From a virus (taxonomy: Duplodnaviria > Caudoviricetes), in the IMG/VR virus record IMGVR_UViG_3300036713_000599: a stretch of DNA of 64,000 nucleotides; one strand, given 5' to 3'. A program made the position numbers and the translations under genes. Below, piece after piece: positions 7,330 through 27,600 of this stretch (within the stretch, counting starts at the first letter, position 1; each line of letters opens with the position of its first letter). Under the pieces are notes generated by a model. The model was not told the DNA's origin, did no database searches, and was given only the letters and a program-made list of their open reading frames with translations.

Positions 7330-8560
7330 GTTCGAGATCAGAAATTTTCAGTCGATCAAACATACTCGGCTGAAAGTGGAGGGATTTCTCGCCCTTACCG
7401 GCCCTTCGAATATCGGTAAGAGTGCCATCATTCGAGCAATTCGGTGTTGTCTCACAGGTGCCGCGGGCACTGACTTTGTTCGACATGGGCCGGACTGTCC
7501 TCGTAGGAGAGGTAGGAAGAAGTGTAAGTGCTATGCTTCGGTGAGCATCAAGTTACCTGGTATGGTGGTGTTGTGGGAGAAAGGGGATGCAGTCAACCAG
7601 TACAAGGTGTGGAGGGGTGAGGCCTCTGAGCCTGAGGTCTTCAGTGCTGTGAATCGAGGGGCTCCTGAATTTCTTAGCCCAATGTTCGAGCCCGTTAAGA
7701 TCGGGGATAAACGGGAACTGGTGCAGGTAGCGGAACAGTTTGAGCCAATTTTTCTCTTGAAGCATAGCGGCAATACAGTTGCTGATGTCTTGAGTGATGT
7801 CGCCAACCTCGACGAAATTAATAAGGCGATGTCGTTGGCAACTAAGGATAGAAAGAATGCCGTAAGTACACGCAAGATCCGAGAAAAGGACATGGCTCGT
7901 CTTGACCAGGATCTAGTGAAGTATAAGGGCCTGGACGGAGTCGTACAGCGTGGGATTGAAGTGGAGGCACGCTACGGGGCCATAGAAGTGGCCCAGAATA
8001 AGCTTTTGGAGCTGGACAGGTATCGGAGCGTCTTAGGCAAGGTACTGCTTTCTGTTCAGGCTCTGAGCGACGCTACTAAGCCGCCTGTACCTGATGCCTC
8101 GAAGGTGCGGGAGGCTGCTTCTAGAGCAGCCGATTCCGACAGGTTTCTACAAAAGCTCCGTTCCATGGCTCCTGAAGTCCGTAGACTTAAAAACATCGGT
8201 CAGGTCAGGGACGTCGAAAGCAAACCTCTTCGTGAGGCGTATACCAGATTGGCCCAGCTAGACGGATGGGTCCAGAGGCTTCGGTCGTTCAAGAAAAATT
8301 CTTCTGAGATTGAAATGGTTCGACAAAAGATTGTACCGGACAAGAAATTTGTTGAAGAGGCCCTTGTTCGTCTGAAAAAAGTCGATTCTCTTTTGAGGAG
8401 GCATACTTCCGTTCAGGAGGAGATTTCCAGGCTGGGGGCGGAACTGAAGACAACCTTGGAGAGAGAGCAGGCCATAGTTCAAGAGTTTCGTGATATGGGA
8501 GTATGCCCTGCTTGCTCGCAGCCTGTCACAGCTGACCATTGCTTGAACCTTGGGGGTTGA
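7322..8560 (+). CDS. sbcC: SbcC/Rad50-like ATPase, N-terminal half (Walker A, coiled coil, CxxC hook)
   Basis: IRNFQSIKH...LTGPSNIGKSAIIRAI, a long coiled coil, and a terminal CPACSQ; no signature or Walker B motif. Confidence 0.8.
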   Translation: MIEFEIRNFQSIKHTRLKVEGFLALTGPSNIGKSAIIRAIRCCLTGAAGTDFVRHGPDCPRRRGRKKCKCYASVSIKLPGMVVLWEKGDAVNQYKVWRGEASEPEVFSAVNRGAPEFLSPMFEPVKIGDKRELVQVAEQFEPIFLLKHSGNTVADVLSDVANLDEINKAMSLATKDRKNAVSTRKIREKDMARLDQDLVKYKGLDGVVQRGIEVEARYGAIEVAQNKLLELDRYRSVLGKVLLSVQALSDATKPPVPDASKVREAASRAADSDRFLQKLRSMAPEVRRLKNIGQVRDVESKPLREAYTRLAQLDGWVQRLRSFKKNSSEIEMVRQKIVPDKKFVEEALVRLKKVDSLLRRHTSVQEEISRLGAELKTTLEREQAIVQEFRDMGVCPACSQPVTADHCLNLGG

Positions 8561-10756: not shown

Positions 10757-12016
10757 ATGAAAATTAAGGTGGAGAGTAAGACCCTCAATGAGGCCCTTGG
10801 GGTCGCTAGTCTGGTTCCGCCCACGACGATAGTTTCGTCGTCGAATTCAGCGTCTGGGCAAGGCTCTGGTTATCTTTTTGAGGTCAAGGACGGTAAGTGT
10901 TCCATCCATAGTCGCGACCAGACACACCGTGTGAAGGTCAACGTCCCTATCCTTGACGCTGAAGGAGACGGGCTCTTTATTTGCCCTTTGGCTATTGTGG
11001 GAGGGCTTAAGTACTTGGATGGTTGGATTGACATTGAGTTTGGTCACAACAAAGATGAGGATTTATATTGGCTGAAGTACACAACAGAAGGGGGAGCCAC
11101 CTCTGAGGTCTCGACCTTTGACCCTCGTTTAATGAAGACAATAGACGATGAGATCTCTGGTGACACCTACGAGGTTCCTTCTGCCATTCTTAAAGATGCT
11201 CTGGTGTGTGTCAACGCTCATGTTGCGACCGCGAACAACGACAGAGTGGGTGAGGTCTACAAGACGCTCCAGTTGTTTGATGCCTCACTTAGTGGCGGCG
11301 ATGGCACTATGTACGGGGCCGACAATATTCGAACATGTTACTACTACTCTCCTACCTTGTGTGGTAAGGTGTTCTCCATCAATACTCGCCATGTTGGTTT
11401 GGTGACTTCTTTCCTGTCCAAGTTCAACGGTTCGGCGATGAAGATCCATATGGGAGAGGCTGTTCGGTTTGTCGAAGCTCCGGATGGATCAGCAGTAGGG
11501 TGGGCCGGTTCAGTTGAGGAACATAAACGGTTTCGGTACTACGCGTACAAGAATGACAGGTATGTCCTGGCGATTCCCAAGACAGAGTTGGTCCGGGCTG
11601 TCAAACATGTGAGTGCGGGCAAGATCGAGAAGATTCGTGTCGAGTACAATCACGAGAACAGGTCTCTGCAGTTTCATGCTAGAGGTCCGAGTGGTTTGAT
11701 TTCCTCGACCCCTGTCGTCACTACCCCTCTTACCGAGGACGACGAAGAGTTTGGTGGCTTGGATGCTGATTCTAAGTCTTTCGGGGCCAACATTTCCACC
11801 GATCACATTAAGGGCATGATCGAACCTGTGAGAGGTCACCAGGTTATCCTTCGGGTGTTTATCATGCCGGAGAGTAAAAATCGCCGTGAGATGGCCCTTT
11901 TCAGGACGGTGGAGGAGTACCATCTCAACGACAACGGTAAGGAAGTCATTTCCGATGATGAAGGCGAGGAGGCCCACCTGTGTCGAGTAACGAGGTATGC
12001 TCCGTCGATGGGCTGA
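10757..12016 (+). CDS. dnaN: DNA polymerase III beta (sliding clamp)-like protein
   Basis: MKIKVESKTLNEAL start, YLFEVKDGKCSIHSRD, YEVPSAILKDAL, MYGADNIR match the three-domain clamp pattern; 419 aa; DnaX is encoded nearby. Confidence 0.7.
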   Translation: MKIKVESKTLNEALGVASLVPPTTIVSSSNSASGQGSGYLFEVKDGKCSIHSRDQTHRVKVNVPILDAEGDGLFICPLAIVGGLKYLDGWIDIEFGHNKDEDLYWLKYTTEGGATSEVSTFDPRLMKTIDDEISGDTYEVPSAILKDALVCVNAHVATANNDRVGEVYKTLQLFDASLSGGDGTMYGADNIRTCYYYSPTLCGKVFSINTRHVGLVTSFLSKFNGSAMKIHMGEAVRFVEAPDGSAVGWAGSVEEHKRFRYYAYKNDRYVLAIPKTELVRAVKHVSAGKIEKIRVEYNHENRSLQFHARGPSGLISSTPVVTTPLTEDDEEFGGLDADSKSFGANISTDHIKGMIEPVRGHQVILRVFIMPESKNRREMALFRTVEEYHLNDNGKEVISDDEGEEAHLCRVTRYAPSMG

Positions 12017-12654
12017 GACAGCGTGTGCGTGCTGCGTCAGCCGAGAGTGTTCGGCTGACGACACTTCGCGACCGTCTTCAGGCCGAAAGAGACGCTAGGC
12101 AACAGGAAGTCGCTGAATTGACTGTCGAAATAGACATCCTGTCGAAGGTTGGGGAATTGTATCAGGTTCTGATGGACACTCTCATCGTGAAACAGATAGA
12201 GGCTGTCGAGGGCCTGGTTACAGAGAGCTTCCAGACAATCTTTGATGATCAGGACTTATCTTTCGAGTCCGAAGTGAGCCAGAAGTATGGCAAGGTGTCG
12301 ATCGACTTCTTTGTGCGCAGTGGGCCAAAGGACAATCCTCTCTCGCATCGCGGTAGGCCCCTTGAGTCTTTTGGGGGCGGCCCCACTAGCATGGCCTCGC
12401 TCATCATACGCTTGCTCACTATCGTCCGACTTAAGCGACACCCTTTACTGCTACTAGACGAGACACTTTTGGCTATATCGGACGAGTATGTTGCAGCCAC
12501 CAGCCAACTTCTCCGAGAACTTTCATCTAAGATGGGGCTGGATATAGTTCTCGTCACACACAAACCCTCATTTGCTGAGCACGCTGATCAGGCGTACCGG
12601 TGTTCTCGTGTTGAAGAAGGTGGCACGGAACACCTGAAGGTTAAGAGGCTCTGA
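11980..12654 (+). CDS. sbcC: SbcC/Rad50-like ATPase, C-terminal half (coiled coil, signature, Walker B, H-loop)
   Basis: GTG at 11980 with GAGGAGG SD at 7-nt spacing; coiled coil, then ESFGGG (signature), LLLLDE (Walker B) and LVTH (H-loop). Confidence 0.82.
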   Translation: MSSNEVCSVDGLRQRVRAASAESVRLTTLRDRLQAERDARQQEVAELTVEIDILSKVGELYQVLMDTLIVKQIEAVEGLVTESFQTIFDDQDLSFESEVSQKYGKVSIDFFVRSGPKDNPLSHRGRPLESFGGGPTSMASLIIRLLTIVRLKRHPLLLLDETLLAISDEYVAATSQLLRELSSKMGLDIVLVTHKPSFAEHADQAYRCSRVEEGGTEHLKVKRL

Positions 12655-13274: not shown

Positions 13275-13851
13275 GATTATTTTGGAGGTGGACAGGGTCC
13301 GACGTCGGGCAGCACCGGCCGGATTTTCTCTTCCTGTGCTTTTAGAGTATACAGATGACCTTAAAAATGCCCCTTTCTTGTCGACGAACACGAGAGGGGT
13401 GTTCCTTCAAACTAGGTTATCCCGGGAAGGGGTTGTTCGGTTCGCCCCCACTCTTTGTCCTCCTGAGCAAGAAGGGAGGCTTGTGGAGGAACTGGTGAAG
13501 ACGCTTTGGGCGATTTCTTGTCGCGAAGGCTGGGCTAATCGGTGTAGTGATCTCGGTGAAGCTCAAGATGTCATGTTGTCTCTAGGTGAGACACCGAAGG
13601 CAGTGGTCGTACCGCCCTCTGTTCTTGAGCAAGCTTGTGGTGAGAAGATGACGATCGAAAGAGCGGAGCATCTGATGGCAATGCAGGGTTACATTGCTCG
13701 AACAAAGGAAGGTTTGTTGGTTCTGTCTGCGGATCTTCCTGAAGGCCGAGCCTTTTTGGCGTCAGGTACGGTTGGGGCTTATGTTCGATCACACAATCAC
13801 GTCGGTGTCTTGATTCGTAGGGCCGACAGGTCCTTGGTGTTAGTGGGATGA
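13255..13851 (+). CDS. Hypothetical protein
   Basis: ATG at 13255 after GGAGG; its stop overlaps the primase start (ATGA). Confidence 0.55.
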   Translation: MRTSVLEIILEVDRVRRRAAPAGFSLPVLLEYTDDLKNAPFLSTNTRGVFLQTRLSREGVVRFAPTLCPPEQEGRLVEELVKTLWAISCREGWANRCSDLGEAQDVMLSLGETPKAVVVPPSVLEQACGEKMTIERAEHLMAMQGYIARTKEGLLVLSADLPEGRAFLASGTVGAYVRSHNHVGVLIRRADRSLVLVG

Positions 13852-14561
13852 GCTGGATCAATACATTCATTGAGTACGCCCACGAACAGCTGACTGGTAG
13901 AGAGCGTGAAGCTCTTTGGTCACGAGGCGTGAGTGATGACCAAATCAGACTGTACCAGATCGGTTACGTCTCGAACGGTCTTCCCTGTGGCCTCGAAGGG
14001 GCCGACGTTTTACGCGAAAAGTACCAAAATACGGGATGGTTACGGGATGTTTTTGTTCTGCCTTTGACCAACACTCTTGGGCAGAACAAAGGATTTCAGC
14101 TCCGGCACGTAGAAGAAGAAAAGAAGGGTTACTCTCATTTCTCTGTTTACGAGGAAGAGCCTGTTCTGTTCGGTCTTGGTCAGGCCATGCGTGCAGCATG
14201 GGAAACCAGGTGCCTGTGGCTCACGGAAGGTGTTTTCGACTTGTTTCCTATTCAGCGGGTGTGCCCCAACGTGATCCCAACATTGACCAACCATTTGTCT
14301 GCGGAGACAGCTCGTTGTCTTCGTAGGGTCGTAGACGAGCTGTGGTTGGCGTATGATATGGATCTAGCGGGAAGAAAAGCTGCTGCTCGTGTCATCAGGG
14401 ATTACAGTGGGCAATTTAGTCGTATACATGATGTTGTTTTTCCAAGAGTTCCTAAATTTAGGGGAGGTAAGGTGAAGGACCCTAATGAACTATGGCTCGC
14501 CTGGGGGGACAACAAAGTGCAGAATTTTATCCGTAACCAGCTAGGAGAGTGTTATGCCTAA
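13848..14561 (+). CDS. dnaG: DnaG-type primase catalytic core (TOPRIM), without Zn-binding domain
   Basis: REALWSRGVSDDQIRLYQIGY, FVLPL...GFQLR, WLTEGVFD (TOPRIM E), LAYDMDLAGRKAA (DxD), KDPNEL. Confidence 0.8.
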   Translation: MSWINTFIEYAHEQLTGREREALWSRGVSDDQIRLYQIGYVSNGLPCGLEGADVLREKYQNTGWLRDVFVLPLTNTLGQNKGFQLRHVEEEKKGYSHFSVYEEEPVLFGLGQAMRAAWETRCLWLTEGVFDLFPIQRVCPNVIPTLTNHLSAETARCLRRVVDELWLAYDMDLAGRKAAARVIRDYSGQFSRIHDVVFPRVPKFRGGKVKDPNELWLAWGDNKVQNFIRNQLGECYA

Positions 14562-15057
14562 GACTTGGGAAGACGCTAAAGACTTGGAACACATTGCCTC
14601 AGGCCTCATCAGTGGCTACCATCCGGAGATCTCCACAGCTCGTATCCTGTACTGCTTTGTGAGTGAGGCTGGTTCAAAAGGGGGCCGCAAGATCCCAGGA
14701 AAGGTCCGTAAGTTCAGTGGGTTCATGGAGTGGGTCCTAAATAAGGACTTTGTCGTTGAGGTTGCTCTGGACATGTGGCTTGAGTTCGATCAGCAACAGA
14801 AGACAGCACTCGTGGACCACCTGCTGGAGAGGTGTTATGGGGAGGAGAACGAAGACTCCGGGGAGATTTCCTGGAAGCTTCGCGAGCCGGATGTCCAGGA
14901 ATTCGGTACAATCCTAAATCGTCATGGAGCCTGGAACTCTGATCTGCATACGTTCGTGAGTATATCTAGAGAGGTTGATCTCGATCAGATAATTGAGGAG
15001 GAAGGTCAAGTTGATCAACTGGAAGAGGAGACGGTACAGGTCGAGAACGAGAGGTAG
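14554..15057 (+). CDS. Phage metallopeptidase-like protein with degenerate HExxH
   Basis: ARILYCF...GKVRK...DFVVEV...W...QQKTALVDHLLERC...PDVQEFGTILNRHGAW fits the putative phage metallopeptidase pattern, but the active-site motif is altered. Confidence 0.6.
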   Translation: MPKTWEDAKDLEHIASGLISGYHPEISTARILYCFVSEAGSKGGRKIPGKVRKFSGFMEWVLNKDFVVEVALDMWLEFDQQQKTALVDHLLERCYGEENEDSGEISWKLREPDVQEFGTILNRHGAWNSDLHTFVSISREVDLDQIIEEEGQVDQLEEETVQVENER

Positions 15058-15060
15058 CGT

Positions 15061-16509
15061 GTGTGGGATATCAAGTACAGGCCCTTGACATTTGACGACG
15101 TTCTAGGACAGGACGGTTCCGTCCAGGTTCTTAGAAACCGTGTGAAGAAAGGCGTTGCCCTAGACACAAGCTACATCTTCTCGGGTGGTTTTGGTCAGGG
15201 GAAAACTACGATTTCTCGCATCCTGGGCCGTGCTTTGTTGTGCCAAGACCCTCAGGAGGACGGTAACCCTTGTAATCAGTGTGACAACTGCAGGGCTATT
15301 TTGAGTGAAGCTTCCAATGCTTTCTTTGAACTCGACGCTGCTAGCAAAGGCACTATCGACAACATCCGTAAAATCGTAGATGACTTAGCCTTCGCAGTCC
15401 CCGGCGCGCCTAAACGGGTTTACATATTCGATGAAATGCATCGCATGTCGCGGGACTCGCAGGATATTTTGCTTAAGCCTCTTGAGGACAGGCGTCTTGT
15501 GGGTATTTTCTGTACAACAGAGCCATCTAAGATTCGGAGCACCATTCGATCAAGATGTGAAGAGTACCCTATCCGACGTATCCCTCGTGAGGCCATTCTT
15601 GAGAGGATGCAGGAAGTCCTGAGGAAGGAGAACGTTGAATTTGAGGATGACGCTGTGCTTACTGTCATCGATTACAGTGACGGGCATGTGCGGGACATCT
15701 ATAACCGTCTGGAGATGGTCGCCCAGCTTGGTAAAATAGATCTACCTACTGTGCGTGAGTACCTGGACTTGTCTCTCGTTTCGAGGTATTATGAAATTCT
15801 ACTCCTTCTTGGAGAACCTTCAAAGGTGATCACTTTGGTGGAGTCGGCCTGTGACCGTGTAGGTGTGGACGATGTGGTTACGGGCCTTGCTGAAGCTGCC
15901 ATGAGTTCGTATCGGCTGGCTCATGGTATTTTTGCTGAGTTTAGTCACGTGGATAAGGATTTGGCGAAGCAGGTCTATTCTGTCTACGGTGACAACGTCG
16001 TGAGGCTTGCTGAATTCTTTCTTCGGCCGGCTCGCCCAACAAAGGTCGGGCTAGTATGTGACGTGGTGAGGTGTGCTGGAGGCGTCCCCGAGGCCACATC
16101 CCAACAGTCTACTGCCCCTCCAGTTGTAGTGGCCGCCCCTGCCGTTCAAGTACCCGTACCGCAACCCTCGCAGACACCTGGACAGCTTTCGGAGCCTCCG
16201 GCTAGCATTGAACCGTCTGTGGAGACAGAGAGACAGCATCAACCTAAAATAGAGGTTAAGCTCTCGCCACCGAAACCGAAACCGTGTGACGAGGTTGGCA
16301 ACCTTGGTTCGAGCGACCCTTGTGCCCTCACCGAGATCGATAAGCGAGTCATCCCGTCCGAGGGCCCTCGCGGCGCTAACGGTAATGTCGTCCAGAAGGT
16401 GCACTTATTTAAGGGCGCTAACGGATCGAGAATGGACGAAATCCTGCCTTCTGAACAATGGGCTCGTGAGTTTTCCCGGTACTTCTTCTCTCCTAGAAAT
16501 GGTGTTTAA
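15061..16509 (+). CDS. dnaX: DNA polymerase III gamma/tau clamp-loader subunit
   Basis: KYRPLTFDDVLGQ, Walker A GGFGQGKTT, PCNQCDNC, ELDAAS, IFDEMH, TIRSRC (SRC motif), Pro-rich tail. Confidence 0.93.
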   Translation: MWDIKYRPLTFDDVLGQDGSVQVLRNRVKKGVALDTSYIFSGGFGQGKTTISRILGRALLCQDPQEDGNPCNQCDNCRAILSEASNAFFELDAASKGTIDNIRKIVDDLAFAVPGAPKRVYIFDEMHRMSRDSQDILLKPLEDRRLVGIFCTTEPSKIRSTIRSRCEEYPIRRIPREAILERMQEVLRKENVEFEDDAVLTVIDYSDGHVRDIYNRLEMVAQLGKIDLPTVREYLDLSLVSRYYEILLLLGEPSKVITLVESACDRVGVDDVVTGLAEAAMSSYRLAHGIFAEFSHVDKDLAKQVYSVYGDNVVRLAEFFLRPARPTKVGLVCDVVRCAGGVPEATSQQSTAPPVVVAAPAVQVPVPQPSQTPGQLSEPPASIEPSVETERQHQPKIEVKLSPPKPKPCDEVGNLGSSDPCALTEIDKRVIPSEGPRGANGNVVQKVHLFKGANGSRMDEILPSEQWAREFSRYFFSPRNGV

Positions 16510-18315
16510 ATGCAGGAAGATTGGGTTGTCCTTGAGCTTTCGCCTCGAAGTGAGGGCGAGGATCCCGACATACTCAGTCGGGGTATTCGTAATTCTCTGA
16601 AGATCCGTGATGCTGAGGTTTTTGTTCCGGCGACTGTGACGCAGGTGGGCGAGGATAGAGCAGTTCACTACTTGGTGGAGGGCTATGTTTTTGTGCGGTA
16701 TACAGGGAACCCGACCCCATTTTTTCGCTCGGAGGGTACCCGTTATGTCCAGTCTGTGTTGCGGGACGGAGAGGGGCGACTATCGTTGGTCGCCAACTCC
16801 GAGATTTTGGGGATGCGGGAGAAGCTTTATCGCGAAGTAGATCAGGGTATTGGTATAGGGGACAGGGTACTGATCTGTTCAGGACCTTACCAGAACATTG
16901 AAGCCACGGTCATTGAAGATATTCCCGAGCAAGGGAAGGTCCAGGTCTATGTCAAACTGAGAAGCAAGCAAACGATTCTGACCTTGCCTCGTCCTTTCCT
17001 CCAGGTTGTAGAGAGAACCCCCCTTTCCGCTTATTTCAGCCGTCTTACGGCCCTTCGGGGTTGGACTCGGCAAGTTCGTCTTATTTTCAAGTGGCCTGCT
17101 GATCGAGACAAAGTTGTTCGTTGTGGTTGGGAGACTCTGGAACTTTTGGACAACTGGGACGATTTTAGTTCTAAGCGAATTGCCTTCATAAAATCTTTTC
17201 ACCGAGACACTCGTATGGCTCTTCTGCGAGACAAGTTGGGTAAATTGTCTCAGTTGGATGAGTGGGTTCGTAGGTCTAGTTCGAGATTTGTTTTCGTTCG
17301 AGCGTGTTGGCGCAATGACCTGGACAGGTGTGCTCGAACGGTCCAGGACAAGCTTGTGGAGCTGTGTTGGTTTGACGATGTGTTGGATCGGATTAATTCG
17401 CTTCAAAAAGAAGTAGAGGTTCTGGCGCATCGTGTCGCCAAGAGAAGGAAAGGTGGAGGCGTGAAGGTTATCCAGAATATTTTGGTCGACGGCCACAATC
17501 TCGCTCACAGATGTTTCCATGCTCCAGGGATATCTGAGCTGAGAGACGAACAAGGACGCCCTACAGGGGCTATTCTGGGTTTTTTGCGTTCCCTATGTGC
17601 TCTTCGGAAAAGATGTCCCGAAGCTCGCGTATATGTCGCTTGGGACGGTAGCTCGAAGCGAAGGAAGGCTATCTACGGAGAATACAAGGCTAACAGAAAA
17701 CCCCCCCTCGAAGGTTTTGTTGCACAGGTGGACTACCTCAGAGCTATTCTACCTTTTTGCGGGGTCTGGCAGGCGGACAGTCCTGACGAGGAGGCTGATG
17801 ACATTTTGGCAGCCTTGGTTCGAGGTCAGTTGAGAGATCAACATAACCTGTTGTTCTCTACGGACCGTGACTTGCTGTCGCTCGTCACAGAGACGACATC
17901 TATGCTCCTGCCCGGAGCAGGTAGTCGTAAGGATGTCGTGCACGGTCCGGCGTCTATCAAAAAATCTTTTGGGGTGGCTCCTTCGACTATTTTAGATTTT
18001 CGTGCATTTTGTGGGGACACTTCTGATAACCTTCCTGGCGTACCCAGAGTGCCTAAAAAGGTCCTGTGTTCTTTAGTTAAGGCCTACGGTTCGATCGATG
18101 GTGTTTACGGTTCAGGGTTGGCAGGGGTCAGTAAAGGGCAATATGAGAGGTTGCGTACAGCCGAACCTCAGGTCAGACTAAATAGGGAACTTATGTCCCT
18201 CATAAATGTCGAGGTTTTTGTGAGGGGCCCGAGTGCAGACGCAGAGAAGGCTGCTCAGCGGCTACGAGAGGTCAACATAGACCCGACCCCGCTCCTTGGG
18301 GTTCTTCTCGGGTGA
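16510..18315 (+). CDS. NusG-like (NGN+KOW) protein fused to a PolI-type 5'-3' exonuclease/flap endonuclease
   Basis: N-terminal WVVL..VFVP..LVEGYVFV..YVQSVL and KOW IGDRVLICSGPYQNIEATV; ~150-aa helical linker; from aa 318 ILVDGHNLAHR, AWDG, YKANR, EEADDILA, STDRDL, GDTSDNLPGVP. One uninterrupted 601-aa frame. Confidence 0.85.
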   Translation: MQEDWVVLELSPRSEGEDPDILSRGIRNSLKIRDAEVFVPATVTQVGEDRAVHYLVEGYVFVRYTGNPTPFFRSEGTRYVQSVLRDGEGRLSLVANSEILGMREKLYREVDQGIGIGDRVLICSGPYQNIEATVIEDIPEQGKVQVYVKLRSKQTILTLPRPFLQVVERTPLSAYFSRLTALRGWTRQVRLIFKWPADRDKVVRCGWETLELLDNWDDFSSKRIAFIKSFHRDTRMALLRDKLGKLSQLDEWVRRSSSRFVFVRACWRNDLDRCARTVQDKLVELCWFDDVLDRINSLQKEVEVLAHRVAKRRKGGGVKVIQNILVDGHNLAHRCFHAPGISELRDEQGRPTGAILGFLRSLCALRKRCPEARVYVAWDGSSKRRKAIYGEYKANRKPPLEGFVAQVDYLRAILPFCGVWQADSPDEEADDILAALVRGQLRDQHNLLFSTDRDLLSLVTETTSMLLPGAGSRKDVVHGPASIKKSFGVAPSTILDFRAFCGDTSDNLPGVPRVPKKVLCSLVKAYGSIDGVYGSGLAGVSKGQYERLRTAEPQVRLNRELMSLINVEVFVRGPSADAEKAAQRLREVNIDPTPLLGVLLG

Positions 18316-18333
18316 GAGGGTTGGGAGTGAACC

Positions 18334-19017
18334 ATGGAGTGCGGTATGGCTGCAGGATATATCATTCCCATTGACCCCAACGAGCTTGCAAATCGATTCC
18401 CGTCATACGACCCCCGTGAAGAAGAGGACGAGGACGAGATTCCTGAAGAGTGTCAGGTGTCTGCTGAGGATATGTTGGAATTTCTTGGGGTCGGTGATGA
18501 TTTTGGGGAGCGCGTGGTCCCGTTACTCGACCGAATCCCGGAGAGGGAGGCAGACCTGATCGACTTGTACTTTACCAGGAGAAAAAAGCAGGCAGACATT
18601 GCTATTATGTTCGGTATCACACAGGCGGCTGTGAGTTATCGACTGGATCGAGGTATCCAGCGAATTAAGTTCTTGTTATCCATTCCCGATGTAACAGAAG
18701 AAGACCTTCGGCGGGACTTGCCTGACATTTTTCCACTGAAGGCGAAAGAAACTCGAAATATTGATGTAGATATACTCGTCGGCATGTGGGAGACCACTTG
18801 TCAGTCTGAGGTTGCCGCACGATTAGAGTTGACTCAGGGTAGGGTTCGTCACAGATTTTTTAAGGCTGTCAAGGCCCTCGAAGAGGCAGCCGGGAAGGAC
18901 TCCAGGTTCTCCCCGTATTTTCAAATCTTTTCGGCAATAGCTGGAAAAAACTTTAATATACTCAAAGAGGTGAAGCTCCCTCAGTGGGTTAACCGCGGGA
19001 TAGACGAGTGTGTGTAG
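18334..19017 (+). CDS. Protein with two sigma70 region-4-like HTH domains
   Basis: LDRIPEREADLIDLYF...KQADIAIMFGITQAAVSYRL and CQSEVAARLELTQGRVRHRF; no region 2 is recognisable. Confidence 0.7.
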   Translation: MECGMAAGYIIPIDPNELANRFPSYDPREEEDEDEIPEECQVSAEDMLEFLGVGDDFGERVVPLLDRIPEREADLIDLYFTRRKKQADIAIMFGITQAAVSYRLDRGIQRIKFLLSIPDVTEEDLRRDLPDIFPLKAKETRNIDVDILVGMWETTCQSEVAARLELTQGRVRHRFFKAVKALEEAAGKDSRFSPYFQIFSAIAGKNFNILKEVKLPQWVNRGIDECV

Positions 19018-19171
19018 TGCTTCGTGGTGGTGTGCAGGTCTAATTTCTTTATGGGCTCTCAAGGACACACGAAACAGTCTCTTCATAGAACTTTAGGTTG
19101 GGCCTTGCTTCCTAGTGGTATCCATTGGGATGGTTTTTACTTATACCCGTGGATAAGCGGAGATCAATACC

Positions 19172-20074
19172 TTGTCTGCTGCCAACATTCGCTACCAAGA
19201 CTACCAGTACCAGCACCAGCTCGCCACAGGCAGTTGGCGCTGGACTACGCGTATGGACGTGTCGGGGTCTACGCCTTTGTACAGCGTTCGGGATATCGTC
19301 AGCCCTTATGGGATTTTGAGGGACTCTATTCCCATTCCTGGAGACGTGGTCGAGGCGATGAGTTCGTCCATCACCGAGATCCAGGCGAATTTCCCGCCGT
19401 CGATTCTAATCGGGCCTCCCTCTTCTCTCACCTTTGACGTAGACGAAGGTCGGGGGTACAGTTTACCTCAAGAGGTCGTGCTTACGAACGACGGGGTTTT
19501 CGGCTCTTTGTTGGGCTCATCTCTCGCGGCGTCGGCTACGTATGTCTCGGTTAGTCCTGCTAATGTGGGGAACCTTGCTGTAAATGAATCAGGTTCGTTC
19601 GAGGTGTCTGTTAATTCGACGGATCTTATAAACGCGAACAGCCCCTACATTGAGTCTGTTGTTATCCAGGACGCGAATGCGTCTAACACACCACAATCTC
19701 TGCCTGTGACTATCAATGTTCGGCCCAAGGCTACCATCTACGTGTCTCCAGTAGTACTGGCTTTCTCGGTCACGGCGCCGGTTACCGGACCATTCCCTCC
19801 AATTCCGAGTCAGCAGCTCACTGTCGAGAATACAGGGCCGGCTGACTCCGTCCTTGATTTCCAAATCCAAAGGTTGACTGGCCTTTCTGACGACTGGCTG
19901 TCTGGCTTTTCGCCTGCTTCGGGTACCCTGGTCTCCGGCGGCACTCAGGTGGCTAATGTTACGTGTGCTCCGGTTGTGGGTTTGGCCAGGGGAACATATA
20001 CGGAGGCACTTCGGGTTAGCGGGTACAGCTCTAATTCGTACGTTGATGTCCTCGTTCAGCTAGTGATTTCGTAG
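19172..20074 (+). CDS. Virion protein with two BACON/Ig-like domains
   Basis: Repeated VSP..L.F....Q.L.V.N.G....L...W L....P.SG.L...V.V pattern; TTG start after GGAGA. Confidence 0.65.
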   Translation: MSAANIRYQDYQYQHQLATGSWRWTTRMDVSGSTPLYSVRDIVSPYGILRDSIPIPGDVVEAMSSSITEIQANFPPSILIGPPSSLTFDVDEGRGYSLPQEVVLTNDGVFGSLLGSSLAASATYVSVSPANVGNLAVNESGSFEVSVNSTDLINANSPYIESVVIQDANASNTPQSLPVTINVRPKATIYVSPVVLAFSVTAPVTGPFPPIPSQQLTVENTGPADSVLDFQIQRLTGLSDDWLSGFSPASGTLVSGGTQVANVTCAPVVGLARGTYTEALRVSGYSSNSYVDVLVQLVIS

Positions 20075-20082
20075 GAGCCTGC

Positions 20083-20370
20083 ATGAGTAATTTCAAACTG
20101 AGAAACATCGAAACTGGCGGAGCTACTGGCATGGACGCCCTTTTCGCCAATGAGCCTCAGATCATTAGTCCGGTCGGAGAATCGAAGCCGTCTCCGGCTC
20201 CTAGGCGAATTAAGGTTGCGTCCCTCTCTGGCCTAAAGGGTTTTACACGTGTGGCGTCGGACACTCTTGTGAACAAGGCCACGAATGACTTGTGGGCTCT
20301 TCGTGAGGAGGACGGCGCCTTTTTCATTGAACGCTTATTCCAAGACGACGGTCAACCGCTGAAGGGCTAA
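20083..20370 (+). CDS. Small hypothetical head-associated protein
   Basis: SD AGGAG; contains IKVASL and TRVASD motifs. Confidence 0.6.
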   Translation: MSNFKLRNIETGGATGMDALFANEPQIISPVGESKPSPAPRRIKVASLSGLKGFTRVASDTLVNKATNDLWALREEDGAFFIERLFQDDGQPLKG

Positions 20371-20375
20371 CGGTC

Positions 20376-21608
20376 ATGGGCACCTCGGCGAAAACAGCAG
20401 CTTCCAATAACGAGCCTCGCCAGGCTGAGAAGCGGGATATCCCCAAGGATCATCCATTTGACTCGAAGTCCCTAAAGCCGATGTCTAAGACATTGTGGGC
20501 TTGTAGTGTCGCTTTGGGACACGCTCTTACAGCGTACAGGCACTTTACGAGGCTTAAGTCTGCTACTGTTAGTCCGGACGGTCGGTTGGGTGGAAAGGGG
20601 TATATCCGTGAAATTCCTCAGGTCCGTAGGGATCTTTACGATGTTTGTGAGAAGCTTAGTGCTATTTCTGACACCCTTTTTGACGAGATCAGCGCACCTC
20701 ACTGGAAACCAAAGCTCGCCCTTTTAGACGACAATGAGCAAGAAGACGTCGAAAGGTTCATCGAAGAGTCTAAGAGTGTGCTCGATAATCCCGAAGGAGA
20801 GGTCGAGGAAGAGATTCTGGAAATTGAGCAGGAGAACGATACCAAGTCAGAGCTTCCTGGCGGAGGTGATGTTCCAACCGAGGCACCGTCGAAGGAGACT
20901 ATGAAGCAGGCGTCTGTCGAGGGAGTCTTGTCCCATTTCTTGGGCGAGGCTGCGGGCTCTGACGCCCAAACGGGCGGGCCTCGTGTAGACAACCGTGACC
21001 CTATGGGTGGCGACGGCCCCCACGGTTCATTCAATCCACAGGAAGACGCGACCAGTGACGACTGGGGGCTCGAAGGTGTGCGTGAGTACGACTATAAGGG
21101 TAGCGATATAGTCATTGCTGCCCAACAGTGGGCTCAGACAGTTCTCCCGTTTGACGATACTCCGACTGAGGCATGGGACTGGGGCCTCGGTTACGGTGCC
21201 CGAGGCCAAGGGGCTGGCAACTACGCCAACCCTTCTGGCGAGGGTGGTGGGAAAGGTATTTGGGGGCCCCGCAGCGGGCTTCCTGGTGACTTTCCTCAGT
21301 CCTCGGGAGACTCGGTCGCTCCTGTAGTCGATGTGAGCCTCAATGGGCGCAGGAGCGAGGCTGGGCTTCCAGGGGATGGTGATGACCCTGTGGCTCGCAG
21401 AGACGAGTACGAAGGAGCTAAGGGAAATCTTGTGCAGGCATCCGAGGAGTGGGCACGATCGCTTCCGGACGACATTTTGGCACTCGAAGAAACCGACACA
21501 GGCGTTGATACTGACATAGGCGTCGACACCGACACTGGTTACGTTTACGAGGATCTCTCAACCTCATGGATGCCACTGACGGCCCCTGGGACAACGAGGA
21601 CAGAGTAA
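20376..21608 (+). CDS. Hypothetical protein: helical N-domain plus acidic G/P/D-rich tail
   Basis: 410-aa ORF in the operon; KTAAS and KQASV sites bracket the folded part. Confidence 0.65.
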   Translation: MGTSAKTAASNNEPRQAEKRDIPKDHPFDSKSLKPMSKTLWACSVALGHALTAYRHFTRLKSATVSPDGRLGGKGYIREIPQVRRDLYDVCEKLSAISDTLFDEISAPHWKPKLALLDDNEQEDVERFIEESKSVLDNPEGEVEEEILEIEQENDTKSELPGGGDVPTEAPSKETMKQASVEGVLSHFLGEAAGSDAQTGGPRVDNRDPMGGDGPHGSFNPQEDATSDDWGLEGVREYDYKGSDIVIAAQQWAQTVLPFDDTPTEAWDWGLGYGARGQGAGNYANPSGEGGGKGIWGPRSGLPGDFPQSSGDSVAPVVDVSLNGRRSEAGLPGDGDDPVARRDEYEGAKGNLVQASEEWARSLPDDILALEETDTGVDTDIGVDTDTGYVYEDLSTSWMPLTAPGTTRTE

Positions 21609-24638: not shown

Positions 24639-27600
24639 GTGGTCGAAAAACGCAACAAGGGTGTAGCCTCGTTAGTTCGGACTGTCGGCCGTGAGGCTAA
24701 GCGGTCTCAGTCCAAGGTCGATTCGAGCGGGGCTCCCAAAATATTTTCGATTCTCGACTACATTGAGGCTCCTTGGGGAATTGGTATGAGCCTGTTCCCT
24801 GCCCAGAGGGTCATTGTTAAACTGTACTACAATTTGCCTCTTGACGAGAAATTACCTGAAGAGGACCATCGTCAGATTAAGATACGGGACATGTTCGGTG
24901 AGAAAGTTCTGTACACTCTCACTGAACGTGAGTACTTGACCTATTTGTATAACGAAGGTCGATGTAACATTGGTGAGCAGGACCACATGCGTCGAGAGTT
25001 GGTCCTTGCAGTCGGTCGCCGTAGCGGGAAATGTGTGTGCCATGATTCTTTGGTTTTGACGGACAAAGGGGTGTTCCAAATTGGTGATTTGGCTGAAGCT
25101 CATGAGGATGACTTTTCGTCATTTGATGTGGGAGTGGTCCAAGAGAAAAGTCGTCGAGCCAGGTCTACTCATTTCTATAATGGTGGCGTGAGGCCGATTT
25201 TTTGTGTGAAAAGCGAGTCTGGTTATTCTATTAAGGGTACAGGGAATCATCGCGTCCGAGTCATGTCCAAGTCAGGCCAGGTGGTGTGGAAGTACCTGGA
25301 CGACATCCGACCTGGTGACTATCTAGCGATCAACAGAACTACGGATCTGTGGGCCTCGGATCTTGTGGATCTTAGGCCATTCCATGACGTGGTTGGCTGC
25401 GAGGAATCGAGCCTGCCCGACCTTTTTGATGAAAAGTGGGGCCGCTTTTTTGGCTACTTGGTGGGTGACGGTAGCTGGAACTACAGTGAGAATCCTGAGA
25501 CACGAGAACGTCTCGGTGAGTTGTATGGTACCCTTTTCGGACTCCATTCGACCTGTACGGGTAAGGGGGTGGAGAATGCCAGGTGTGTTCGGTTTGACGG
25601 TGTGTACCAGTTCTTGGCTAGTCTTGGGTGGGTGGCTGGCTGTGAACGACATGCTAGGACGGTTCCTTGGGCAGTTCTTCGTTCTCCGAGGCATGTTGTG
25701 TGTGCCTTTCTGCGAGGGCTTTTTGAGACAGGCGGCTCAGTGGAGAGCGGGGGAAAACGTATTACATTTTCGACGGCTAGTTTTCGCCTAGTCCGTGAAG
25801 TACAGACCCTTCTTTTGAATCTAGGGATTGTTTGCAGTAGGCGGGTTCGTGAGACTGGTGGGTATCGTGCCGTCCTGAGTGTAAAAGGTTTGAGGTCGCG
25901 GCAACGGTTCGCTAAGTTTGTTGGATTTGACTCTAAGAAGAAACAAGACTTGTTGCTCGAAGCTCTTGAGTGCGCCCAGGAAGGGAATCCAGGTACTGTT
26001 GTGCCTCACCAGCACACAAGAGCCCGGGATTTACTGAATTCAGTCCCACGACTTGAGGGCAACAAGTCGTGCAGACGTCGCCATCTTCGACAAGCCCTCG
26101 GTAGTGTGATTGAGCCTGGTTCGGGTGGAGGCTCGACCTACTCTCGGATGTACGCAGTTGTCGAGGTAGCTAAAGAGCAGGGCGCTGGGAGGCGGGAGAT
26201 TGCCCATTTCGAAGAACTGCTTCATCAAGACTATTTTTTCGATCCTGTGGTATCCGTCGAAGAAGGGGAGGATCAGGTATACGATTTGGTTGTACCTGAC
26301 GGGAAGTCTTTTGTGGCAAATGGTCTAACCAACCACAACACAGCCCTTTCCGGTATTTTCGCAAGTTACGAGGTCTACAGGCTACTCAACTTGTACAACC
26401 CTCAGGAGTACTTTGGGCTGCCGAACGGTAACCGTATTCAGCTTATCAGTATTGCTACGGATAAGGACCAGGCAGGGTTGTTGTTCAATGAAGTGACTAG
26501 CCACATAGCGAAATGTGACTATTTTGCTCCCTACCTTGCGAGTAATACACAGGGTTGGGTAAACTTTCGTACACCGTACGACATCGAGAAATACGGCCCA
26601 AATATTCGACAGGAGGACGGTAAGTTTGTATCCCTCAACGGGAAAGCGTCTTTAAGGGTCACGTTCAAATCTTGTATCGCTAAAGGGCTTCGTGGATCGG
26701 GCAACATTGTCATTATTCTCGATGAGGTCGCCCATTTTCTAGACAAGGGCGGTAGCTCTGCAAAAGAGATCTACGAAGCGGTGACACCCTCGAAGGCTGC
26801 TTTTTCTAGGAAGGACCCCAAAACTAAACGTGCGTGGGTCGATCCAGATACAGGCGAGGTGGCCCCTGTTGAGTCCCGAGTTATTTTGATCTCTAGCCCG
26901 CTCGGCAAGTCAGGTAAATTTTACGAGAAGTTCCAACAGGCTATGGGTGGAGGTGAGGGTTCAGAAAATATTCTCGCCATCCAGGCCCCCACTTGGGAGG
27001 TCAACCCTACCGTTCCTTCGAGCGCCTTTCGGGAGGCGTATCACGCTGACCCTCATACGTATGCTACTGAATATGGGGCTAATTTCAGTGATCAGTCTGT
27101 TGGGTGGATTGAGCGGCAGGGAGATCTTCTGGCGTGTGTTGATCCCGAAAGAAGGCCTCTTTTGCGGGGGCGCCCTAGGGCACCTCATCAGATGGGTATC
27201 GATGTTGGGCTTGTGGACGACGGCACTGCTGTCGTCATTACTCATATTGAAGACGACAAGGTTGTCCTCGACTATCACGAGATATGGTATGCGGGAAAGG
27301 ATTGGCGGGAAACAAATCCGCATTTGGGTTCGAACTTTACGACGGATTATGCTAAGACTCTCAGTGACGTGGAGCGTTTGGACTTCGACGCCATTGCTGA
27401 CTGGATCTCTACCCTGTGTTCTCGTTTCCATATCACAGCTGGACTATTCGATCGGTGGAACGGTATTCCACTTGAGCAGACATTGCATAAGCGAGGACTT
27501 AAGCAATTTAATGCCCAATTCTTTACCAGAGACGCCACCTCTAAGCTTTTTCAGACGACCAAACTCATGATGTTTGACGAATGTTTGGATTTTTATGACT

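What the first reader, a model, noticed from the sequence alone, without database searches (positions are those of the whole stretch)
16510..18315. NusG fused to a 5'-3' exonuclease: candidate RNAP-tethered nuclease (torpedo or R-loop cleaner)
Seen: one open frame with a complete NGN+KOW (aa ~1-167), a ~150-aa helical linker and a PolI/FEN-type exonuclease with its acidic active-site motifs (DG.N, WDG, EADD, DRD, GDTSDN). A purine-rich stretch (AAGGAAAGGTGG) precedes an in-frame GTG at 17461, exactly where a stand-alone exonuclease would start, so two products are possible. Known: NusG/Spt5 rides elongating RNAP; 5'-3' nucleases mediate torpedo termination (Xrn2/Rat1; archaeal FttA is linked to Spt4/5); FEN-type enzymes remove RNA primers and flaps. 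Inference: the phage tethers a 5' nuclease to RNAP to terminate or degrade host transcripts, resolve replication-transcription conflicts, or couple late transcription to replication. I do not know this architecture as a characterised system.
Basis: partly seen in the sequence, partly recalled or inferred. Interest (0 to 1): 0.8.

Follow-up and report, generated by a model that had tools for sequence, protein, structure and literature searches.

The report
NusG-like factor fused to flap nuclease
A family of uncultured huge phages joins a NusG-type RNA-polymerase-binding module to an intact DNA-replication flap nuclease in one protein, probably also making the free nuclease from a conserved internal start; this is an undescribed physical link between transcription and replication that can now be tested.

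Summary
Window 16510-18315 (+) is one uninterrupted 601-aa ORF. It has a NusG-fold NGN+KOW module (aa 1-168), a ~140-aa helical arm, and a Pol I-type 5' nuclease (FEN) with all nine acidic active-site residues.

The fusion is not an assembly artefact. Three run-level assemblies match with no differences. More than 100 full-length homologs (45-70% identity) exist, about 50 examined loci carry an intact fusion ORF, and contigs reach 512 kb.

New here:
- More distant phages encode the NusG-like protein and the FEN as adjacent, usually overlapping genes in the same cassette (clamp loader, NusG-like, FEN, sigma-region-4 protein). Some nested lineages are split again, so fusion and fission recur.
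- The ancestral FEN start codon is retained at the junction in all 42 fused loci analysed (31 ATG, the rest GTG; GTG 17461 here), often with an SD-like site. Two products (601 aa and ~284 aa) are likely.
- These phages show no RNA polymerase of their own, so the partner would be host RNAP.
- One relative of the NusG module is fused to a sigma-70 factor.

The function is inferred: an RNAP-tethered structure-specific nuclease at the replication-transcription interface. A torpedo role is unlikely. The scan flagged the same architecture in four other genomes. I found no paper describing it.

The parts
16510..18315 (+). Complete 601-aa NusG-arm-FEN ORF (ATG 16510, stop TGA 18313-18315). Its ATG directly follows the TAA stop of the clamp-loader gene.
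   Evidence: identical in three run assemblies; full-length homologs
16510..16833 (+). NGN domain (aa ~1-108). Family-conserved W5, L8-E9-L10, P19, P40 and the G58-Y59-x-F61 strand, which aligns with the PGYVFV strand of NusG.
   Evidence: RfaH NGN Z 9.8
16843..17013 (+). KOW domain (aa ~112-168), the best-conserved part of the N-terminal half.
   Evidence: Thermotoga NusG KOW Z 11.5, rmsd 1.1 A
17026..17439 (+). Helical arm (aa 173-310): three long predicted helices, low sequence conservation, weak ~36-residue periodicity with conserved Trp at 185, 195, 216, 252 and 287. No fold match found.
17443..17463 (+). Junction: purine-rich SD-like stretch (AAGGAAAGGTGGAGG) followed by an in-frame GTG (17461-17463, codon 318, 9 codons before catalytic D327). 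It is a candidate internal start for a ~284-aa free FEN.
   Evidence: family-wide start-codon retention; SD control
17479..17970 (+). FEN catalytic (PIN-like) domain, Pfam 5_3_exonuc_N, aa 324-487, with D327, D379, E428, D430, D431, D452, D454.
17974..18201 (+). FEN H3TH DNA-binding domain, Pfam 5_3_exonuc, aa 489-564, with the GDxSDNxPGV motif (D503, D506).
18277..18312 (+). C-terminal tail with a conserved hydrophobic peptide (family NPxx[IL][LIV]xxFFG; here PTPLLGVLLG). A clamp-binding role is a lead only.
   Evidence: PolA lacks the motif
15061..16509 (+). Upstream neighbour: clamp-loader ATPase (DNA_pol3_delta2; phrog_5846), conserved in synteny.
18334..19017 (+). Downstream neighbour: sigma-like protein with region-4 HTHs but no region 2, conserved in synteny. 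Late (terminase, portal) genes follow.

Best explanation
The gene encodes a two-headed protein of a huge phage that depends on host RNA polymerase.

Shown:
- The N-terminal NGN+KOW module is a true NusG-family fold.
- The C-terminal module is a catalytically complete Pol I-type 5' flap nuclease, and it is the only FEN in the genome record.
- The two were ancestrally adjacent, mostly overlapping genes inside a conserved cassette: clamp loader, NusG-like, FEN, sigma-region-4 protein.
- They became fused, with a ~140-aa helical arm, in one large clade.
- The old FEN start codon is kept at the junction.

Inferred:
- The gene makes two products. The full-length protein docks through its NGN domain on the host RNAP elongation complex. 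A free ~284-aa FEN, made from the internal start, does ordinary Okazaki-primer and flap removal.
- The tethered form brings a structure-specific 5' nuclease (flaps, RNA-DNA hybrid 5' ends, bubble or R-loop junctions) to transcribing RNAP on phage DNA. Likely jobs are clearing R-loops, removing transcript-derived primers and clearing flaps where replication and transcription meet. This ties replication to the sigma-dependent late programme encoded next door.
For: - Real and conserved: the ORF and frame are confirmed. More than 100 full-length homologs at 45-70% identity were listed, and about 50 examined loci carry an intact fusion ORF, on contigs up to 512 kb. NGN and KOW are as conserved as the nuclease (column conservation 0.64/0.75 against 0.70/0.73; arm 0.41).
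- NusG fold. Family relatives pass Pfam's NusG and KOW cut-offs, and one (P0311) is fused to a sigma-70 region 2+4 factor.
- Active FEN. It is the only FEN in the record; no RNase H was found, and the PolA lacks a 5' nuclease domain.
- Partner would be host RNAP: no multisubunit RNAP domains in this record or in five relatives of 372-512 kb, three of them >=94% complete.
- Cassette and neighbour-gene origin. Split lineages are nested among fused ones in the FEN tree (L141+L123 100/98).
- Internal start: among the 39 unique fused loci, a start-capable codon lies 7 codons before the catalytic Asp in 36, and a GTG lies at D-9 in the other three, including this window. Three more loci of the window's subclade also carry GTG at D-7 and/or D-9. 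Background is 6.6% per codon. Val codons at those two positions are GTG in 13 of 15, against 28% GTG usage. An SD-like core lies 3-12 nt upstream in 16 of 29 loci, against 11.7% at internal start-capable codons.
- Genomic position: last gene of the replication/recombination module (RecA, SbcCD-like, PD-(D/E)XK, candidate clamp, primase, clamp loader), just before the sigma-like gene and the terminase and portal genes.
Against: - No experiment or expression data exist: no RNA run holds the stretch. RNAP binding, nuclease substrates and the short product are all untested.
- In this window and its closest relative the junction start is the weaker GTG. The best SD-like matches here are at awkward spacing, and L091 has no SD core.
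- The retained Met/Val could partly reflect a structural need at the FEN N-terminus.
- Recurrent fission shows that covalent tethering is not essential, which fits mere co-expression as well.
- The arm's topology differs between the two AF2 models (hinge near 232 or near 269), so the geometry is unknown.
- Very divergent phage RNAPs could escape the Pfam models, and the control for the T7-like RNAP search did not ring.
Confidence: 0.5

Rival explanations
1. Independent functions with co-expression only. The NusG-like part is a processive antiterminator for long phage operons on host RNAP (like RfaH or LoaP), and the FEN is the replisome's primer-removal nuclease. The fusion is a neutral or dosage-balancing merger of neighbouring genes, with no mechanistic tethering.
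For: Both halves occur as separate genes in many relatives, and fission recurs. The retained internal start would free the FEN anyway. It is the only FEN in the genome, so a replication role is expected.
Against: The NusG-like and FEN genes stay adjacent, and mostly overlapping, across very distant relatives (27-33% identity), always in the same order. The fused state persists across a clade that has diverged to ~35% identity. A dedicated ~140-aa arm with conserved ends accompanies the association. A neutral fusion would be expected to decay more often.
Confidence: 0.25
2. T4-like coupling of late transcription to replication. The FEN end (with a C-terminal clamp-binding peptide) rides the phage sliding clamp loaded at nicks and primer ends. 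The NGN end engages host RNAP carrying the neighbouring sigma-like factor. The protein would then be a mobile bridge that activates or licenses late transcription on replicating DNA. Nuclease activity may be secondary.
For: The conserved cassette is clamp loader, NusG-like, FEN, sigma-region-4 protein, placed directly before late genes. A candidate clamp gene lies at 10757-12016. A conserved hydrophobic peptide sits at the extreme C-terminus in 98 of 117 homologs. A relative of the NusG module is fused to a sigma factor. Established knowledge: T4 gp45 clamp activates late promoters through gp33 and gp55.
Against: The clamp-binding motif is recognised only by resemblance from memory. The phage PolA does not share it, and it is degenerate (LL for FF) in this window. 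NusG-family proteins act in elongation, not initiation. Strict conservation of the catalytic residues argues that nuclease activity matters.
Confidence: 0.15
3. Torpedo-type terminator or host-transcript degrader. The RNAP-tethered nuclease degrades nascent RNA 5'-to-3' to dislodge RNAP (like Xrn2/Rat1 with Spt5, or FttA with Spt4/5).
For: Formal analogy only. NusG/Spt5 KOW domains recruit termination nucleases in eukaryotes and archaea; PDB entries 8qsz and 9bct appear among the structural hits to the NGN/KOW part.
Against: The nuclease is a Pol I/FEN PIN-like domain plus an H3TH duplex-DNA-binding motif. From established knowledge, such enzymes are structure-specific for duplex junctions and are not processive single-strand exoribonucleases. 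No Xrn, RNase J or beta-CASP domain is present.
Confidence: 0.04
4. The NGN-KOW module has been repurposed and no longer binds RNAP. It may anchor the FEN to another partner such as the replisome, the ribosome (via KOW-S10-like contacts) or nucleic acid.
For: Sequence similarity to cellular NusG is low (Pfam below cut-off in this protein). KOW-like barrels occur in many non-transcription proteins (one search lists ribosomal, Tudor-like and restriction-enzyme hits).
Against: NGN plus KOW in canonical order matches NusG/RfaH/Spt5 as a whole. The most conserved NGN strand is the NusG signature strand. A family member is fused to a sigma-70 factor, and the gene always neighbours a sigma-like gene.
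Confidence: 0.06

Closest known systems
Specialised NusG paralogs (RfaH, LoaP, UpxY, ActX) and housekeeping NusG/Spt5
   Same: NGN followed by KOW, with the same folds (Foldseek E down to 8e-10; NGN Z 9.8; KOW Z 11.5). The conserved GYxFV strand is shared. It is encoded by a mobile element, next to the genes it may serve.
   Different: It carries a ~140-aa helical arm and a complete nuclease after the KOW domain. Neither the NusG review (PMC7819879) nor my searches mention any nuclease fusion. Sequence similarity is too low for Pfam's cut-offs in this member. RNAP binding is untested.
Pol I 5' nuclease domain and stand-alone bacterial or phage FENs (Taq/Mtb Pol I N-domain, ExoIX/Xni, T5 FEN, SPO1-like phage 5'-3' exonucleases)
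   Same: Same two Pfam domains above cut-off, all acidic metal ligands and the H3TH motif present. 30-37% identity to phage FENs such as those of SPO1-like Bacillus phages.
   Different: No deposited phage record covers more than the nuclease half (0 of 193 records cover >=80% of the query). AlphaFold DB cluster hits also cover only aa ~312-600. Here the FEN is preceded by a transcription-factor module.
Spt5-assisted termination nucleases (Xrn2/Rat1 with DSIF; archaeal FttA with Spt4/5)
   Same: A nuclease is placed on an elongation complex through a NusG/Spt5-family protein. This resembles how the fusion may work.
   Different: Those nucleases are Xrn or beta-CASP exoribonucleases, bound non-covalently and acting on nascent RNA. 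Here the nuclease is a covalently linked FEN with a duplex-DNA-binding motif. It is not a member of those families.
T7 gene 4 (gp4A/gp4B) and similar phage genes with an in-frame internal start giving a long and a short product (from established knowledge)
   Same: A conserved in-frame start codon with an SD-like site at a domain boundary would yield full-length and C-terminal-domain-only proteins.
   Different: Here the internal start is the relic of a formerly separate gene's start. Production of two proteins has not been observed.
T4 late-transcription machinery (gp45 clamp, gp44/62 loader, gp55, gp33) (from established knowledge; gp33 reference cited in PMC7824862)
   Same: Genes for a clamp loader, a partial sigma-like factor and a polymerase-binding accessory sit together at the replication/late boundary, which suggests replication-coupled transcription.
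   Different: No homology to gp33 or gp55 was shown. The RNAP-binding element is NusG-like, and it is joined to a nuclease. Clamp binding is untested.

Membership tests
NusG/Spt5 family | NGN domain (alpha/beta fold, PF02357) | tested here: met
   Pfam is below cut-off in this protein (13.4 bits against 22.2). The family profile hits Thermotoga NusG at E 1.6e-7. The AF2 model matches RfaH NGN (Z 9.8, 97 aa, rmsd 3.0) and Foldseek's top 49 hits are all NusG/RfaH/Spt5. Relatives P0319 and P0324 pass the Pfam cut-off.
NusG/Spt5 family | KOW domain directly after the NGN domain | tested here: met
   Thermotoga NusG KOW Z 11.5, rmsd 1.1 A over 56 aa. Pfam KOW E 0.048, below cut-off. Order NGN then KOW as in NusG.
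NusG/Spt5 family | NGN binds the RNAP clamp (beta-prime clamp helices / beta gate loop) of elongation complexes | not testable with these tools
   Indirect evidence only: the conserved signature strand, a sigma-70 fusion in a relative, and no phage RNAP.
Pol I-type 5'-3' exonuclease / FEN family | PIN-like catalytic domain plus H3TH domain (PF02739 + PF01367) above curated cut-offs | tested here: met
   110.9 bits (cut-off 34.3) and 52.2 bits (cut-off 40). Structural matches to Pol I and 5'-3' exonuclease clusters, rmsd 2.8-3.4 A over ~285 aa.
Pol I-type 5'-3' exonuclease / FEN family | Complete set of acidic metal-binding residues | tested here: met
   D327, D379, E428, D430, D431, D452, D454, D503 and D506 align with the Taq Pol I 5'-nuclease acidic residues. 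They are invariant or nearly invariant in 117 homologs.
Pol I-type 5'-3' exonuclease / FEN family | Structure-specific 5' flap / 5'-3' exonuclease activity | not testable with these tools
   Requires an enzyme assay.
Torpedo termination nucleases (Xrn2/Rat1, RNase J, FttA/aCPSF1) | Xrn-family or beta-CASP/metallo-beta-lactamase exoribonuclease domain | tested here: not met
   Pfam, NCBIfam and PDB sequence searches find only FEN/Pol I 5'-nuclease domains in aa 321-601.
Genes with dual products by in-frame internal initiation (T7 gene 4 type) | Conserved in-frame start codon with a ribosome-binding site at a domain boundary | tested here: met
   A start-capable codon lies at D-7 or D-9 in all 39 fused loci and in the three further subclade loci (background 6.6% per codon). 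GTG accounts for 13 of 15 Val codons there. An SD-like core is present in 16 of 29 loci against 11.7% background. In this window the start is GTG 17461, with a sub-optimally spaced SD-like stretch.
Genes with dual products by in-frame internal initiation (T7 gene 4 type) | Two proteins actually made | not testable with these tools
   No RNA or protein data; no RNA run holds the stretch.
T4-type clamp-coupled late transcription system | Clamp-binding C-terminal peptide on the RNAP-associated factor | tested here: inconclusive
   A conserved C-terminal hydrophobic peptide occurs in 98 of 117 homologs. Its resemblance to PIP-like or clamp-binding motifs is from memory only, and it is not shared by the phage PolA.

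The most novel reading that the evidence does not exclude
Huge phages that rely on host RNA polymerase have evolved an RNAP-riding flap/RNA-DNA-hybrid nuclease. A NusG paralog delivers a replication nuclease to elongation complexes and may bridge to the sliding clamp through its C-terminal peptide. This would be a dedicated machine that resolves or exploits replication-transcription encounters (R-loop removal, processing of transcript-derived primers, licensing of late transcription on replicating DNA). Its dosage would be set by producing tethered and free nuclease from one gene.
Probability: 0.35. Interest if true: 0.85.

Novelty: new variant of a known kind. Interest (0 to 1): 0.68.

Why it matters
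NusG/Spt5 is the only transcription factor family conserved in all life. Its KOW domain is known as an adaptor for ribosomes, Rho and RNA-processing or termination factors. A covalent fusion to a DNA-replication flap nuclease has, as far as my literature searches show, not been described.

The family is large: 411 clusters at 50% identity for the NusG-like module, about 76 of which carry the arm. It is widespread in huge phages of sediments and other habitats, and it sits at the boundary between the replication and late-gene modules.

If the tethering is functional, it gives a simple, genetically separable system (NGN, arm, FEN, internal start, natural split variants) for studying how replication and transcription are coordinated on one template. 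It could also provide a tool for delivering a nuclease to elongating bacterial RNAP.

The fused, split and two-gene series is also a clean natural example of a Rosetta-stone fusion that keeps the downstream gene's start codon.

Tried and rejected
- Assembly error or hidden stop: rejected. Three run assemblies are identical and the frame is conserved in many independent contigs.
- 'Short' exonuclease-only relatives on long contigs (P0134, P0138): these are gene-calling artefacts, because the whole frame is open upstream.
- Stand-alone close relatives of the N-terminal half: only two fragments, on ~1-kb contigs.
- Deposited phage genomes: no record holds the fusion.
- Literature searches (NusG with huge phage, Biggiephage, jumbo phage, flap endonuclease or fusion): nothing describes it. 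Neither the jumbo-phage comparative paper nor the NusG review mentions it.
- RNA evidence: no RNA holder is listed for the stretch.
- Fold of the helical arm: no usable match in the ESM Atlas (TM below 0.45) or in the PDB searches, which were dominated by KOW and NGN.
- Shared clamp-binding motif in PolA: not found.
- Sigma-70-type promoter and intrinsic-terminator scans over 13500-20500: not above shuffled expectation. There is one 9-bp hairpin plus T-run at 19110-19130, after the sigma-like gene.
- Beta-clamp Pfam N-domain (PF00712) and Pol III alpha (PF07733): no match in the record.
- T7-like RNAP (PF00940): no match, but the control genomes did not ring, so this result is uninformative.
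- Torpedo mechanism: rejected on nuclease family.
Full report
**1. The observation**

Window 16510-18315 (+) is a single 601-aa ORF (P0001). Its ATG directly follows the TAA stop of the upstream gene. Contigs assembled separately from three sediment-metagenome runs (two studies, possibly the source samples) cover 16400-18400 with no differences or gaps at 20-36x word depth. The open frame, including the region around 17460, is therefore not an assembly artefact.

**2. Domains**

The C-terminal half is a Pol I-type 5' nuclease (FEN).
- Pfam 5_3_exonuc_N covers aa 324-487 (E 7e-32) and 5_3_exonuc (H3TH) covers aa 489-564 (E 9e-14). Both are above the curated cut-offs.
- The best solved relatives are the 5' nuclease domains of mycobacterial and Taq Pol I (E 3.5e-30 and 1.7e-28). 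Those alignments pair every acidic active-site residue: D327, D379, E428, D430, D431, D452, D454, D503, D506.
- All of these residues are invariant or nearly invariant in 117 homologs.

The N-terminal part falls below Pfam's cut-offs in this protein (NusG E 0.12, KOW E 0.048). The NusG assignment still holds up on independent tests.
- PHROG 6386 'transcription antiterminator' matches at E 1e-8.
- TIGR00922 nusG matches at E 1e-6, followed by UpxY, RfaH and LoaP.
- A profile of 118 homologs hits Thermotoga NusG over both NGN and KOW at E 1.6e-7. The family's invariant G58-Y59-x-F61 strand aligns on NusG's PGYVFV strand.
- An AlphaFold2 model of aa 1-322 (mean pLDDT 89.5) gives 49 Foldseek PDB hits at E<=1e-3, all NusG, RfaH or Spt5.
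- VIA-align gives KOW Z 11.5 (rmsd 1.1 A over 56 aa) and NGN Z 9.8 (rmsd 3.0 A over 97 aa).

Between the two modules lie three long predicted helices (173-193, 199-267, 271-310 in the full-length model, pLDDT 90.8). The hinge position differs between the two models. The arm is poorly conserved (0.41 column conservation, against 0.64-0.75 elsewhere). It shows a weak 36-residue periodicity, which is the best lag and about 3 SD above the mean of lags 5-79, with conserved Trp at 185, 195, 216, 252 and 287. I found no fold match for it.

**3. How widespread, and in what**

- A word-indexed search found 653 proteins at E<=1e-3. The best 120 are 552-650 aa long, nearly all cover the full length of the query at 45-70% identity, and many sit on contigs of 100-475 kb. 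JGI's automatic name for some is '5'-3' exonuclease/transcription antitermination factor NusG'.
- An exhaustive profile search with the N-terminal half found 411 representatives at 50% clustering. About 76 of them (E<=1e-30) include the arm.
- IMG/VR holds 59 loci matching the N-terminal profile, on contigs up to 512 kb, some with terminal repeats.
- The window's own record is a 241-kb viral contig. Earlier notes of this scan place a CasPhi system and other huge-phage features on it.
- No deposited phage genome has the fusion: 193 records match only the nuclease half. No AlphaFold DB cluster among the top hits has it either.
- I found no paper describing the architecture.

**4. Context**

Upstream, all on the + strand, lie RecA, an SbcC-like ATPase, an SbcD/Mre11-like phosphoesterase, a PD-(D/E)XK nuclease, a 419-aa candidate processivity factor (phrog_947, E 5e-5), a Toprim primase, a phage metallopeptidase and a clamp-loader ATPase. 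Then comes this gene. Next is a sigma-like protein with region-4 HTHs only, followed by an intein-containing large terminase and a portal.

The run Toprim, metallopeptidase, clamp loader, NusG-FEN, sigma-r4 is conserved in relatives at 45-50% identity.

This gene is the only FEN and the only NusG-like gene in the record. No RNase H was found, and the family-A DNA polymerase has no 5' nuclease domain.

Neither this record nor five relatives of 372-512 kb (three >=94% complete) have recognisable multisubunit RNAP domains. The NGN domain's partner would therefore be host RNAP, redirected by phage sigma-like factors.

**5. Origin of the fusion**

- More distant relatives (27-33% identity; L144-L146, L148, L149, and the carriers of P0323 and P0333) have the same cassette with two genes. 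A 171-209-aa NGN+KOW protein without an arm comes first, then a 277-353-aa FEN. The two genes usually overlap by 4 nt or abut.
- Within the arm-bearing clade, L113 and L141 encode NGN-KOW-arm (320 and 298 aa) and FEN (309 and 294 aa) as separate overlapping genes. L123 has the two halves in frames that overlap by 164 nt.
- In a maximum-likelihood tree of FEN domains, L141+L123 form a supported split clade (100/98) nested among fused forms, and L113 sits at the base of the larger group that contains them. The distant two-gene forms make a long-branched clade (100/100).
- Fusion and fission have thus occurred more than once. The covalent link is derived and dispensable, but the partnership is old.
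- One relative of the NusG-like module (P0311, 541 aa) is instead fused to a sigma-70 factor with regions 2 and 4. This independently ties the module to RNA polymerase.

**6. Internal start**

- In the split genes the FEN begins with Met 7-10 codons before the catalytic Asp.
- In the fused genes that codon is still there. Of 117 homologs, 57 have Met 1-3 residues before the Q/E-N motif, inside an otherwise variable linker.
- At DNA level, 36 of 39 unique fused loci have ATG (31) or GTG (5) exactly at D-7. The other three, including this window and its nearest relative L091, have GTG at D-9.
- Three further members of the window's subclade have GTG at D-7 and/or D-9.
- Start-capable codons make up 6.6% of codons in these ORFs. 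Val codons at these two positions are GTG in 13 of 15 cases against 28% GTG usage, while the neighbouring D-6 Val codons are unbiased.
- An SD-like core lies 3-12 nt upstream in 16 of 29 loci, against 11.7% for internal start-capable codons in this genome and about 31% for crude first-start calls.
- These counts ignore shared ancestry, so they are not formal probabilities. The pattern (ATG, GTG and TTG interchanging, with synonymous non-start codons avoided) is what selection on a start codon predicts.
- In this window the start would be GTG 17461, giving a 284-aa FEN. Its SD-like stretch is present but not ideally spaced, and L091 has none. The short product is therefore less certain here than in the ATG-bearing majority.

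**7. Mechanism**

Shown: a NusG-fold module, an intact FEN, their ancient gene partnership, the cassette with clamp loader and sigma-like factor, the retained start codon, and the absence of a recognisable phage RNAP.

Inferred (confidence about 0.5): the full-length protein docks on host RNAP elongation complexes via the NGN domain and carries a structure-specific 5' nuclease to them, while the free FEN made from the internal start serves the replisome. FEN-type enzymes cut 5' flaps and remove RNA from RNA-DNA hybrids at duplex junctions (established knowledge). The likely targets near RNAP are therefore R-loops, transcripts used as primers after replisome-RNAP encounters, and flaps on heavily transcribed replicating DNA.

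Rivals:
- Independent functions with mere co-expression (0.25).
- A T4-like bridge between sliding clamp and RNAP that licenses late transcription (0.15). The cassette and a conserved C-terminal hydrophobic peptide in 98 of 117 homologs hint at this. However, the motif is only a resemblance from memory and is absent from the PolA.
- A repurposed NGN-KOW module that no longer binds RNAP (0.06).
- Torpedo termination (0.04), which does not fit because the nuclease belongs to the wrong family.

**8. Verdict**

The same architecture was flagged by this scan in four other genomes. Those notes suggested the internal start and the ~36-aa repeats, which I tested here.

Novelty: a new variant of known kinds, namely a NusG paralog with a covalently attached replication nuclease. 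It is undescribed in the literature I could search, although automatic annotation names both domains.

Noticed in passing
protein P0311 (541 aa): A relative of the phage NusG-like module is fused C-terminally to a sigma-70-type factor (Sigma70_r2 aa 51-113, Sigma70_r4 aa 215-263, NGN-KOW aa 326-491). A sigma-NusG fusion is itself an unusual architecture.
   Followed up: partly
window 18334-19017 (+): The conserved downstream neighbour is a 227-aa sigma-like protein with two region-4-type HTHs, an acidic N-terminus and no region 2. It is kept next to the FEN gene even in the distant two-gene relatives.
   Followed up: partly
window 24639-27956 (+): The large terminase subunit (phrog_17415, phrog_9) is interrupted by an intein with a LAGLIDADG homing-endonuclease domain (Intein_splicing aa 139-567).
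   Followed up: no
G000:C1:234226-238413 (+), outside the window: The family-A DNA polymerase lies in a 1395-aa ORF. Its Pfam match is split by about 1.2 kb (model positions 4-304, then 303-380), which suggests an intein or other large insertion. It has no 5' nuclease domain.
   Followed up: no
window 10757-12016 (+): A 419-aa protein with a weak match to 'DNA polymerase processivity factor' (phrog_947, E 5e-5) and no Pfam hit. It is a candidate divergent sliding clamp and is conserved in relatives (a 417-418-aa gene in L005 and L007).
   Followed up: partly
window 18277-18312 (+) and homologs: A conserved peptide at the extreme C-terminus, NPxx[IL][LIV]xxFFG (here PTPLLGVLLG), occurs in 98 of 117 homologs. 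From memory it resembles PIP-like or clamp-binding peptides of FENs. It is not shared by the phage PolA.
   Followed up: partly
L153 2856-4004 and L154 2856-4004: In one distant relative, an RRXRR-family HNH-like endonuclease gene (382 aa) is inserted between the clamp-loader and NusG-like genes. It is probably a homing element within the cassette.
   Followed up: no
window 7322-8560 (+) and 11980-12654 (+): An SbcC/Rad50-like ATPase appears in two pieces about 3.4 kb apart: an N-terminal head (AAA_23) and a 224-aa protein matching the C-terminal part of SMC_N. An SbcD-like phosphoesterase, a PD-(D/E)XK nuclease and the candidate clamp lie between them.
   Followed up: no
window 19110-19130 (+): A 9-bp stem-loop followed by a T-run lies about 90 nt after the sigma-like gene's stop. 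It may mark the end of the replication/transcription-factor operon, before the late genes. It is a consensus match only.
   Followed up: no
L123 3989-5131 and 4968-6017: In this 448-kb relative the NusG-arm and FEN reading frames overlap by 164 nt. Its sister L141 is also split (26-nt overlap), so the split looks real. A frameshift has not been excluded.
   Followed up: partly
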